From assembly GCF_009914755.1 (NCBI RefSeq), contig NC_060931.1: a DNA stretch of 64,000 bases; one strand, given 5' to 3'. Origin of the DNA: the human T2T-CHM13v2.0 reference genome, Homo sapiens. Below the pieces are notes generated by a model. The model made no database searches. It worked only from the letters and a program-made list of their open reading frames with translations, and was not told the DNA's origin. Positions within the stretch are counted from its first letter, which is position 1, and each line of letters starts with the position of its first letter. This document shows, in pieces, positions 29,665-32,808 of this stretch. The translations under genes were made by a program, and so were the position numbers.

Positions 29665-30953
29665 TCCCATTCTTTGTCTGCGGCACTAGTCCAAGAAGGA
29701 TGGATATTTCAAGAAATGAAGTTAAACCTTCTAACTTTTTCCTAAGCACTAGAGATTCAGAGTCAGAATTTAAAATGGAATGACCAAGAATAAAGTTTTA
29801 TTTTCTGACACGACAGAATTTGTGAATCAAGAGTAATACCTACCATAACTGAATACCATAAAAAAGGAAAGAATGAAAGTTTTTCAGAGGAAAATTGATA
29901 GCCTCCAATTCTATACTGAGCCAAAATACTCTATAGAACCACCAAATAGCCCCATCATTGCAAAAGTTAGAAAACATTGTAAAACATCGTAAATATATTT
30001 TAATGAAAGAAAATGAAAGGACAAACTAAAAAAATACAAAGAAAAGGCAAATAGCAGAATGCATTAAACAGTTACTCAAGTAGGATTAGTCATATTGCAT
30101 GTGATAATATTAATGAGTCAAACTCCCTCTTAAGTAACAAAACTCTCCATTTGCATTTAAAAAAATAATTCATTCACTGGCTGTAATAAGAGTAATGCCT
30201 AAAATCGAACATGGCTCTGAGCCATCCAATGTTCAGGCTCTCTCCTGAAACCCCATTGTAACATCAATAAAGATGTTATTTTAAAAGACACAAACTGAAA
30301 AATGGAAGAAAATGAAAGTAGAGACACACCAACAGAATCCTGAAGCCTGGAAAGCATGTGAATAAGTGGCTTTGTTCTGATTTGCACTGCCAAATCTTCC
30401 AAAGGCTCAGAAATGGATGTCCACAGAGACTCTGTAGTGGGGCTGGTGTTGAGAAAGGAGGTTGGTTGAGAGCTGCTTGAGGAGTGTTATTTGCCTAGCT
30501 CTCTCCCACTCTGTGCCCTTAGTGGCTGCCCCTCCCTGACCTAGCATAATAGATGTCTAAAATTTTATTCTCTGGAAACTTGAAAGAGAGGGTCTCTGGA
30601 CAGAGGGACACCAGGAAAAGTTGAAAGCACATGTGCTGTAACAAAATAAACAAACAAAAATGAAAGGAATATTAAGAGAACATCTGCAAACTGAGTGATG
30701 AGACTTTCTACTTAATTATCCCTGCCTTTTACCAGAATGCTGCAGCCAGGACTTAACTTCTAGACAAGAGGCTAGAGGGATTTTTCCTAGGAAATACTAC
30801 CAGCCCAAGAAGGAGAGGACTTAAGAGACTCACACCGAGGAAGCCCCAACAAATGTCTCAGATAATCTTACTGTGCCTTACTGTGAATCCCAAGATCAAT
30901 GGGTCCCATTCTCATGCACAGAGTTTAAAATTAGATTTTCAGACCTTTCACTC

Positions 30954-32808
30954 TTTTTTTTCTTCACTTAGTCCTTTATTTAAGGAAGTCTAGAGATGGA
31001 TATTAATATTAACAGAATCTCAAAAGTTGAATTACTGAGGATATATTCAGCAAATAATTTAAGAGTGCCAGATTTAATGATTTGAAACACGTCTCCATAT
31101 TGGATGAACTCATATTCCCTATGTAATTCTTTTTTTTTTTTTAATACTTTAAGTTCTAGGGTACATGTGCACAATGCGCAGGTTTGTTACATATGTATAC
31201 ATGTGCCATGTTGGTGTGCTGCACCCATTAACTCATCCTTTACATTAGCTATATCTCCTAATGCTATCCCTCCCCCTTCCCCCCAACCCCATGACAGGCC
31301 CCGGTGTGTGATGTTCCCCTTCCTGTGTCCAGGTGTTCTCATTGTTCAGTTCCCACCTATGACTGAGAACATGCAGTGTTTGGTTTTTTGTCCTTGCAAT
31401 AGTTTGCTGAGAATGATGGTTTCCAGCTTCATCCATGTCCCTACAAAGGACATGAACTCATCCTTTTTTATGGCCGCATAGTATTCCATGGTGTATATGT
31501 GCCACATTTTCTTAATCCAGTCTGTCATTGACGGACAATTGGGTTGGTTCCAAATCTTTGCTATTGTGAATAGTGCCACAATAAAATACCGGCAAACTGA
31601 ATCCAGCAGCACATCAAAAAACTTATCCACCATGATCAAGTGGGCTTCATCCCTGGGATGCAAGGCTGGTTCAACATACACAAATCAACAAATGTAATCC
31701 AGAATATAAACAGAAAAGACAAAAACCACATGATTATCTCAATAGATGCAGAAAAGGCCTTTGACAAAATTCAACAGCCCTTCATGCTAAAAACTCTCAA
31801 TAAATTAGGTATTGATGGGATGTATCTCAAAATAATAAGAGCTATCTATGACAAACCCACAGCCAATATCATACTGAATGCGCAAAAACTGGAAGCATTC
31901 CCTTTCAAAACTGGCACAAGACAGGGATGCCCTCTCTCACCACTCCTATTCAACAGTGTTGGAAGTTCTGGCCAGGGCAATCAGGCAAATGAAAGAAATA
32001 AAGGATATTCAGTTAGGAAAAGAGAAAGTCAAATTGTCCCTGTTTGCAGATGACATGATTGTATATTTAGAAAACCCCATAGTCTCAGCCCCAAATCTCC
32101 TTCAGCTGATAAACAACTTTAGCCAAGTCTCAGGATACAAATCAATGTGCAAAAATCACAAGCATTCTTATACACCAATAACAGACAAACAGAGAGCCAA
32201 ATCATGAGTGAACTCCCATTCACAATTGCTTCAAAGAGAATAAAATACCTAGGAATACAACTTACAAGGGATGTGAAGGACCTCTTCAAGGAGAACTACA
32301 AACCACTGCTCAATGAAATAAAAGAGGACACAAACAAATGGAAGAACTTTCCATGCTCATGGATAGGAAGAATCAATATCATGAAAATGGCTATACTGCC
32401 CAAGGTCATTTATAGATTCAATGCCATCCCCATCAAGCTACAAATGACTTTCTTCATAGAAATAGAAAAAACTACTTTAAAGTAAATATGGAACCAAAAA
32501 AGAGCCTGCATTGCCAAGACAATCCTAAGACAAAAGAACAAAGCTGGAGGCATCACGCTACCTGACTTCAAACTATACTACAAGGCTACAATAACAAAAA
32601 CAGCATGGTACTGGTACCAAAACAGAGATATAGACCAATGGAACAGAACAGAGCCCTCAGAAATAATACCACACATCTACAACCATCTGATCTTTGACAA
32701 ACCTGACAAAAAACAAGAAATGAGGAAAGGATTCCCTATTTAATAAATGGTGCTGGGAAAACTGGATAGCCATATGTAGAAAGCTGAACTGGATCCGTTC
32801 CTTACACC
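30954..32808 (-). mobile_element. 5'-inverted, truncated L1PA (L1PA4-6-like) with 3' transduction
   Basis: TSD TCAGA(C/T)CTTTCACTC at 30939-30953 and 32809-32823; T8 tail; non-L1 segment 30962-31128; T13 tail; antisense L1 3' end to 31585; inverted (plus) ORF2 RT segment 31579-32808. Confidence 0.9.

What the first reader, a model, noticed from the sequence alone, without database searches (positions are those of the whole stretch)
30939..31142. L1-mediated 3' transduction: ~170 bp of foreign DNA between two tails
Seen: the TSD TCAGA(C/T)CTTTCACTC sits at 30939-30953 (partner 32809-32823), not next to the L1's own tail (T13, 31130-31142). It is followed by a second tail (T8, 30954-30961). The intervening 30962-31128 is not L1 and has AATAAA on the minus strand (30980-30975), about 14 nt before the outer tail. 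Established: L1 read-through of its weak poly-A signal mobilises downstream flank. Inference: the segment is copied from the flank of the source L1 and can identify the parent element.
Basis: partly seen in the sequence, partly recalled or inferred. Interest (0 to 1): 0.8.

Follow-up and report, generated by a model that had tools for sequence, protein, structure and literature searches.

The report
L1 insertion carrying copied chr13 flank
An old, partly inverted L1 insertion on chromosome 7 carries about 168 bases copied from chromosome 13, an ordinary case of L1 3' transduction except that the donor L1 is no longer at the chromosome 13 site.

Summary
A 15-nt target-site duplication (14 of 15 identical) brackets 30954-32808. 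Inside it, read on the minus strand, lie an inverted L1 ORF2 piece, the L1 3' end, an A13 tail, about 168 nt of non-L1 DNA with AATAAA, and an A8 tail.

A whole-genome search finds exactly one other copy of the non-L1 segment, on contig C13 at 101111226-101111389, 94% identical. That copy is continuous unique DNA with no tails, so chr13 is the parent and chr7 is the RNA-derived copy.

Only a 71%-identical old L1 piece turns up, about 8 kb upstream, within 15 kb upstream and 10 kb downstream. Homology starts exactly at TT|AAGA, an L1 endonuclease-type target. This fits an empty allele whose donor L1 was never fixed or was lost.

The segment therefore names the parent locus, not the parent element. 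Copy-to-parent divergence of 6.1% puts the event roughly 15-30 Myr ago. The L1 also shows twin-priming inversion: about 718 nt missing and a 7-nt junction microhomology.

This is textbook biology and of low interest. The main rival, at about 8%, is a template-switch chimera with a chr13 transcript's 3' end.

The parts
30939..30953 (.). Target-site duplication, copy next to the outer tail (TCAGACCTTTCACTC). It may be 16 nt if the T at 30938/32808 is counted.
   Evidence: D13, 14 of 15 identical; 0 of 20000 shuffles; only 2 places in the window with at most 2 mismatches.
30954..30961 (-). Outer poly(A) tail (A8 on the minus strand). It is not templated at the chr13 parent locus.
   Evidence: chr13 continues with unrelated sequence where the offspring has the A run.
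30962..31129 (-). Transduced segment, about 168 nt, copied from G000:C13:101111225-101111389 (+ strand sense). There are 10 mismatches in the 164 aligned nt.
30975..30980 (-). AATAAA poly(A) signal of the transduced segment. It is conserved in the chr13 parent, where a T/GT-rich stretch follows the cleavage point.
31130..31142 (-). Inner A13 tail, read as the donor L1's own genomic poly(A) tail. Its last 2 A's could equally be the AA of the chr13 target site.
31143..31589 (-). L1 3' end piece in sense orientation with respect to the tails. It ends ...CTTAAAGTAT+TA13, with ATTAAA but no AATAAA.
   Evidence: (88.6% to window L1 21104-21566), (95% to the best of 40 scored genomic L1 copies).
31579..31585 (.). 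Inversion junction microhomology CAATAAA, shared by both L1 pieces.
   Evidence: (both alignments overlap at 31576-31589).
31586..32808 (+). Inverted L1 ORF2 piece (reverse-transcriptase region). It lies upstream in L1 coordinates, and its higher L1 coordinate abuts the TSD. About 718 nt of L1 are missing between the two pieces.
   Evidence: 93.6% to window L1 19146-20385; RVT_1, E 1.3e-19, plus strand.
32809..32823 (.). Target-site duplication, copy next to the inverted L1 end (TCAGATCTTTCACTC).

Best explanation
One retrotransposition event, roughly 15-30 Myr ago, placed 30954-32808 into chr7.

The template was a read-through transcript of an active L1 that then sat in + orientation on chr13, with its tail ending at about T2T-CHM13 chr13:101111222/3. 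Transcription passed the L1's own weak end (ATTAAA only) and its genomic A tail. It was cleaved and polyadenylated about 165 nt further on, 10-13 nt after an AATAAA followed by a T/GT-rich element.

L1 ORF2p nicked chr7 and primed on the new poly(A) tail. It copied the chr13 flank, the A13 tail and about 450 nt of the L1 3' end. The second cut end primed internally on the same RNA (twin priming), which gave the inverted ORF2 piece. The two cDNAs were joined at a 7-nt microhomology with loss of about 718 nt, and a 15-nt TSD formed.

The donor L1 allele on chr13 was never fixed, or was later lost. Today chr13 shows the intact empty target site TT|AAGA.

Shown by the calls: the anatomy, the parent locus, the direction of copying, and the absence of a donor in this assembly. 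Inferred: that a donor L1 once existed, its orientation and position, the read-through, and the date.
For: 1. Composite inside one TSD pair. The match is 14 of 15, with 0 of 20000 shuffles reaching it, and no second duplication lies at the inner tail.

2. Order on the minus strand is L1 3' end, A13, non-L1, A8, with AATAAA 13 nt before A8.

3. The non-L1 part has exactly 1 other match in the 3.1-Gb genome. It is on chr13, 94% identical over 164 nt, in the orientation expected. A reciprocal search with 1200 nt of chr13 finds only the same 164 nt on chr7.

4. On chr13 the segment is embedded in continuous unique DNA without A tails. The 600 nt upstream has no other copy. So chr13 is the parent and chr7 the retrocopy.

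5. Homology begins exactly at TT|AAGA on chr13. This is one of seven recalled L1 endonuclease target hexamers, which together occupy 163 of 27068 positions (0.6%) of the surrounding chr13 DNA.

6. chr13 has a T/GT-rich stretch just past the point where homology ends, as at a real poly(A) site.

7. The L1 end lacks AATAAA.

8. Source loci without a donor L1 in the reference are a described class (passages of PMC4862182). About 9-10% of L1 insertions carry transductions (passages of PMC12350158; PMC4862182).

9. No Rfam family or tRNA lies in the segment.
Against: - The feature that would clinch it is missing. No young L1 lies next to the chr13 segment. BLAST with two window L1 probes over 15 kb upstream and 10 kb downstream gave only a 71%-identical old L1 piece about 8 kb upstream, plus Alu-like hits.
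- No sibling insertion sharing this flank exists to show that a donor was active there.
- The endonuclease-site argument is weaker than 0.6% suggests. The AA next to an A tail is ambiguous under any model, so only the preceding TT discriminates.
- The chr7 nick site inferred from the TSD (CACTC/CTAAAC) is unlike the recalled TTTT/AA consensus.
- The genome search skips very common words and scores only the best candidates, so strongly diverged extra copies could be missed.
Confidence: 0.85

Rival explanations
1. Template-switch chimera. ORF2p started reverse transcription at the chr7 nick on the poly(A) tail of an unrelated + strand chr13 transcript. It copied the last ~165 nt of that transcript, then jumped to the poly(A) tail of an L1 RNA and went on. 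No L1 ever sat at the chr13 locus.
For: - No donor L1 lies at the parent locus.
- No sibling offspring exists.
- The chr13 segment ends at what looks like a good poly(A) site: AATAAA plus a downstream T/GT-rich stretch.
- An AA at the switch point would give microhomology with an A tail.
- L1 chimeras made by template switching or RNA joining are documented. In one such case the absence of an L1 at the parental gene was taken as evidence for two RNAs (passages of bioRxiv 10.1101/2025.02.02.635956). Those are 5'-side chimeras.
Against: - The switch would have to fall by chance on a TT|AAGA endonuclease-type site.
- It needs an unshown transcript on the strand opposite the FGF-domain exons that flank the locus on one side.
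- It requires trans-use of a cellular RNA followed by a return to L1 RNA. From recalled knowledge of cis preference this is much rarer than read-through.
- The catalogues I read describe non-L1 parts at the 5' side of L1, not behind its tail.
Confidence: 0.08
2. Two nested, independent insertions. A short retrocopy of the chr13 transcript end inserted first. A twin-primed L1 later landed exactly at its 5' end.
For: Both parts end in their own A run.
Against: - The L1 part has no TSD of its own. There are no shared words of 6 nt or more between 31100-31129 and 32791-32850.
- The only duplication brackets the composite, with one copy touching the L1's far end and the other touching the outer tail.
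- A second insertion exactly between a retrocopy and its TSD, leaving no duplication, is very unlikely.
Confidence: 0.02
3. The donor L1 was fixed on chr13 and was later removed by deletion in the human lineage, or the chr13/chr7 similarity is a DNA-level duplication or repair patch and not an RNA copy.
For: No L1 at chr13 now.
Against: - The chr13 edge looks like an untouched target site, and there is no L1 remnant. Precise excision is rare (recalled).
- A DNA-level copy would not end in an untemplated A8 run 10-13 nt after AATAAA, nor begin at an A13 run.
Confidence: 0.04

Closest known systems
L1 3' flank transduction. The original papers are recalled, not read here (Moran 1999, Goodier 2000, Pickeral 2000, Szak 2003). 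Read here in passages: PMC3024322, PMC4862182, PMC12350158, PMC9311842.
   Same: - L1 3' end with its own A tail, then unique non-L1 DNA, then a second untemplated A tail after a downstream AATAAA.
- One TSD pair around everything.
- A single parent match elsewhere that lacks the tails.
- The 168-nt length lies within the published 7-997 nt range (abstract and passages of PMC9311842).
   Different: The parent locus carries no donor L1 in this assembly. [quoted passage not shown] The event is old (6.1% copy-parent divergence), whereas the catalogues I read concern young or polymorphic L1s.
Twin-priming 5' inversion of L1 (Ostertag and Kazazian 2001, recalled). Named as a mechanism in bioRxiv 10.1101/2025.02.02.635956, and as a source of misannotation in PMC3024322.
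   Same: - The 3' piece is in tail orientation and the upstream piece is inverted.
- The inverted piece's higher L1 coordinate touches the TSD.
- There is microhomology at the internal junction (7 nt).
- TSDs lie around the whole insertion.
   Different: About 718 nt of L1 are missing between the pieces, measured on another L1 copy in the window. From recall, this is larger than the small gaps or overlaps usually described.
L1 chimeric retrocopies made by template switching or RNA joining, such as U6/L1 and mRNA/L1 (bioRxiv 10.1101/2025.02.02.635956, passages).
   Same: Two RNA-derived parts from different loci lie in one orientation inside one TSD pair, and no genomic locus has the two parts adjacent.
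   Different: - In the cases read, the foreign part lies 5' of the L1. Here it lies 3', behind a complete L1 end and A tail.
- The foreign part starts at an endonuclease-type site in its parent locus.

Membership tests
L1 3' transduction | L1 3' end with its own A tail, followed in the same orientation by non-L1 sequence. | tested here: met
   The L1 end is at 31143, A13 at 31130-31142, then 30962-31129. This stretch matches nothing else in the window at E below 0.01.
L1 3' transduction | Second, untemplated poly(A) tail at the end of the non-L1 part, 10-30 nt after a poly(A) signal. | tested here: met
   AATAAA is at 30980-30975 (minus strand), followed by 13 nt and then A8. chr13 has no A run there.
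L1 3' transduction | One target-site duplication brackets L1 plus the extra segment, with none at the inner tail. | tested here: met
   Match of 14 of 15; 0 of 20000 shuffles; no shared word of 6 nt or more at the inner tail.
L1 3' transduction | The extra segment has a parent copy elsewhere in the genome that matches all but the tails. | tested here: met
   G000:C13:101111226-101111389, 94% over 164 nt, and the only other match.
L1 3' transduction | Donor L1 directly upstream of the parent copy, in the same orientation. This is corroborating and not strictly defining, because donors may be unfixed (PMC4862182). | tested here: not met
   No young L1 lies within 15 kb upstream or 10 kb downstream. 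There is only a 71%-identical old piece about 8 kb upstream.
L1 3' transduction | If the parent site is the empty allele, homology should begin at an L1 endonuclease-type target. | tested here: met
   TT|AAGA at L002:1496-1501. Such hexamers (list recalled) fill 0.6% of positions nearby.
L1 3' transduction | Orthologous chr7 site in an outgroup is empty, with one TSD copy. | not testable with these tools
   No primate genomes are on hand.
Twin-priming L1 inversion | Two L1 pieces of opposite orientation, with the inverted one upstream in L1 coordinates and its higher coordinate at the TSD. | tested here: met
Twin-priming L1 inversion | Microhomology at the inversion junction. | tested here: met
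   CAATAAA at 31579-31585 is present in both parental L1 regions of the reference copy.
Template-switch L1 chimera | Parts derive from separate RNAs, and no genomic locus has them adjacent. | tested here: inconclusive
   No adjacent arrangement exists in this assembly, but a lost donor L1 explains that equally.
Template-switch L1 chimera | The foreign part is a known abundant RNA, or an exon or 3' end of a transcript. | tested here: inconclusive
   There is no Rfam or tRNA match. Transcript annotation for chr13 is not on hand. The segment lies on the strand opposite nearby FGF-domain exons.

The most novel reading that the evidence does not exclude
No L1 ever sat at the chr13 site. The insertion would then be a 3'-side L1 chimera. 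Reverse transcription began on the poly(A) end of an antisense transcript from the intron of the chr13 FGF gene and then jumped onto the tail of an L1 RNA. This is the mirror image of the catalogued 5'-side chimeras. If it is common, some share of 'donor-less transductions' would be misclassified template switches.
Probability: 0.08. Interest if true: 0.45.

Novelty: new member of a known kind. Interest (0 to 1): 0.15.

Why it matters
It matters little beyond bookkeeping. It is a clean, fully resolved example of two textbook L1 side-products in one insertion: 3' transduction and twin-priming inversion.

Its one instructive feature is the parent locus. The transduced tag points to a chr13 site, inside a large intron next to FGF-domain exons, where an active L1 must once have sat without leaving any copy in the present genome. 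Tags of this kind are the only trace of such lost donor elements.

It also shows that the usual check, 'find the second locus next to an L1', can fail for a true transduction.

Tried and rejected
- **Second TSD at the inner tail (nested insertions).** None found.
- **Segment as a repeat or part of a host repeat consensus.** There is only one other genomic match. In the window the best other hits are 15-nt words at E 0.028 or worse.
- **The 13-of-14 match between 31114-31127 and L1 ORF2 at 32731-32744** (D15). BLAST E is 4.2, so it is chance.
- **Small-RNA origin.** There are 0 Rfam matches at E up to 1 and 0 tRNAs.
- **Donor L1 near the chr13 parent.** Not found.
- **Sibling insertions with longer or shared chr13 flank.** None.
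- **Splice-acceptor reading of the chr13 edge (T-rich tract plus AAG).** Rejected because the offspring keeps the G of that AAG, so an exon starting after AG does not fit.
- **Subfamily assignment.** Not possible because no L1 consensus library is available. I can only say that the 3' piece is 95% identical to the best of 40 scored out of 5424 candidate genomic copies.
- **Szak et al. 2003.** Could not be read; not held. What it may say about donor-less sources is recalled only, and I do not rely on it.
- **Supplementary tables of the transduction catalogues.** Not opened, so I cannot say whether this locus is listed anywhere.

Full report
**1. What is in the sequence**

- TCAGACCTTTCACTC at 30939-30953.
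- T8 at 30954-30961.
- TTTATT (AATAAA on the minus strand) at 30975-30980.
- T13 at 31130-31142.
- TCAGATCTTTCACTC at 32809-32823.

The repeat finder reports the two 15-mers as a 14-of-15 pair (D13). They are the only places in the 64-kb window within 2 mismatches of that 15-mer. None of 20000 shuffles of the 400 nt beyond the L1 tail gave a match within 1 mismatch, and the expectation is 2.4e-5. Next to the inner T13 tail there is no alternative duplication: 31100-31129 and 32791-32850 share no word of 6 nt or more.

**2. The L1 itself is in two pieces**

BLAST of 30900-32860 against the window gives two alignments to another L1 in the window:
- 31126-31589 aligns in reverse to the 3' end of that L1 (21566-21104, 88.6%).
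- 31576-32809 aligns forward to an upstream part of the same L1 (19146-20385, 93.6%).

An open stretch of the forward piece matches Pfam RVT_1 on the plus strand (E 1.3e-19). So the element is a minus-strand L1 whose upstream part is inverted.

The inverted piece's higher L1 coordinate abuts the TSD at 32808/32809. About 718 nt of L1 are missing between the pieces, measured on the window's other copy. The junction carries CAATAAA (31579-31585), which both parental L1 regions share. This is the anatomy of twin priming. The mechanism is recalled, and is named in passages of bioRxiv 10.1101/2025.02.02.635956.

**3. Where the foreign segment comes from**

The window's genome can be searched. The query 30962-31128 finds itself and exactly one other place: contig C13:101111226-101111389, 94% identity over 164 nt, on the strand that puts it in the same sense as the L1.

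The reciprocal search with 1200 nt of chr13, starting at the segment, finds only the same 164 nt on chr7. The 600 nt upstream on chr13 has no second copy.

The pairwise alignment shows three things:
- On chr13 the segment is continuous with its flanks and has no A runs.
- Homology begins at ...CATTT|AAGAATCAC. The G corresponds to window 31129, and the two A's are indistinguishable from the end of the A13 tail.
- Homology ends 10-13 nt after a conserved AATAAA. From there chr13 goes on with a T/GT-rich stretch, while chr7 has A8 followed directly by the TSD.

chr13 is therefore the parent. chr7 holds a copy made through a polyadenylated RNA. Neither Rfam (0 matches at E up to 1) nor ARAGORN finds a known RNA in the segment.

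**4. The prediction that fails**

It does not. The 1500 nt upstream in L002 are not L1.

I also ran BLAST of two window L1 probes against chr13:101096000-101121199. It gave only a 71%-identical old L1 fragment about 8 kb upstream, plus Alu-like hits from the ends of my long probe.

**5. How I read this**

The homology edge on chr13 is TT|AAGA, an L1 endonuclease-type target. The consensus TT|AAAA and its common variants are recalled. Seven such hexamers occupy 163 of 27068 positions, or 0.6%, of the surrounding chr13 DNA.

That is what an empty, pre-integration allele of a + strand L1 insertion should look like, with the donor's TSD starting at AAGAATCAC. I am cautious about this argument. The AA is ambiguous under any model, so only the TT is truly discriminating.

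Source loci without a donor L1 in the reference are a described class. They are explained by donors that segregated and were not fixed (passages of PMC4862182). Transductions accompany about 9-10% of L1 insertions (passages of PMC12350158; PMC4862182).

The L1's own end reads ...CTTAAAGTAT followed by T and A13. It has ATTAAA but no AATAAA, unlike two other L1 ends in the window. This fits a weak terminator, though the change could post-date insertion.

My best reading, at 0.85, is a classic 3' transduction from a donor L1 at about chr13:101111222/3 that has since vanished.

**6. Date**

There are 10 mismatches in the 164 aligned nt: 7 transitions and 3 transversions, with one at a CpG. This gives p = 0.061 and a Jukes-Cantor K of 0.064. 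At 1.0-2.2e-9 substitutions per site per year over two lineages, that is 14-32 Myr. The counting error is wide.

The L1 3' piece is 95% identical to the best of the 40 genomic copies scored out of 5424 candidates, which agrees in order of magnitude. No subfamily name can be given with these tools.

At this age the donor cannot be a present-day polymorphism. Macaque may or may not have the insertion.

**7. Rivals**

- **Template-switch chimera (0.08).** Reverse transcription starts on a chr13 + strand transcript's poly(A) end and then jumps to an L1 RNA tail. It explains the missing donor and the lack of siblings. It needs an unshown transcript and a coincidental endonuclease-type edge. The parent lies on the strand opposite the FGF-domain exons found on chr13 minus at 100942629-811, 101084958-5074 and 101091405-521, about 20 kb beyond the last of them. 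The gene name FGF14 is only recalled.
- **Two nested insertions (0.02).** Rejected for lack of a second TSD.
- **Later deletion of a fixed donor, or a DNA-level copy (0.04).** These fit neither the clean edge nor the untemplated tails.

**8. Oddities left over**

- The first-strand nick on chr7 inferred from the TSD is CACTC/CTAAAC on the plus strand. This is unlike the recalled TTTT/AA consensus, although TSD length and tail are ordinary.
- The 718-nt gap between the twin-primed pieces is, from recall, larger than usual.

**9. Verdict**

The segment is a transduced flank and it identifies the parent locus, but not the parent element, which is absent from this genome.

The kind of event is textbook. 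This copy is one more member, with a vanished donor as its only point of interest.

I did not open supplementary tables of the transduction catalogues, so I cannot say whether this locus is already listed. My searches were aimed at the mechanism and not at this locus.

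Noticed in passing
window 30949-30958 / 32819-32828: The first-strand nick site inferred from the TSD is CACTC/CTAAAC on the plus strand. This is not the T-rich/AA site (recalled consensus) expected for L1 endonuclease, although the 15-nt TSD and A8 tail are ordinary.
   Followed up: partly
window 31130-31152: The L1's own 3' end has ATTAAA but no AATAAA before its A13 tail. L1 ends at about 21566 and about 37069 in the same window keep AATAAA-type runs. This could explain the read-through, or it could be a later mutation.
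   Followed up: partly
L002:1481-1501 (G000:C13:101111206-101111226): The chr13 edge of homology (T-rich tract followed by AAG) also resembles a weak splice acceptor. The offspring retains the G, so an exon start there does not fit.
   Followed up: partly
G000:C13:100942629-101091521 (minus strand): Three FGF-domain exon matches (PF00167) show that the parent segment lies about 20 kb beyond the first domain exon of a large FGF gene, on the opposite strand. The vanished donor L1 would have been an antisense intronic or upstream insertion. The gene name FGF14 is only recalled.
   Followed up: partly
window 15319-21715: This masked block holds a long plus-strand L1, whose ORF2 and 3' end served as the reference. 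Positions about 15404-15537 and 21574-21712 of the block match multiple chr13 places at 77-88%, as Alu pieces would. The RefSeq enhancer at 15758-16330 lies inside this masked block.
   Followed up: no
window 31114-31127 vs 32731-32744: A 13-of-14 match between the L1-proximal end of the transduced segment and L1 ORF2 in the inverted piece (D15). BLAST E is 4.2, so it is taken as chance.
   Followed up: yes
L003:6499-7446 (G000:C13:101102498-101103445): An old L1 ORF2 fragment, 71% identical to the window's L1, lies on the plus strand about 8 kb upstream of the parent segment. It is too diverged and too far away to be the donor.
   Followed up: partly
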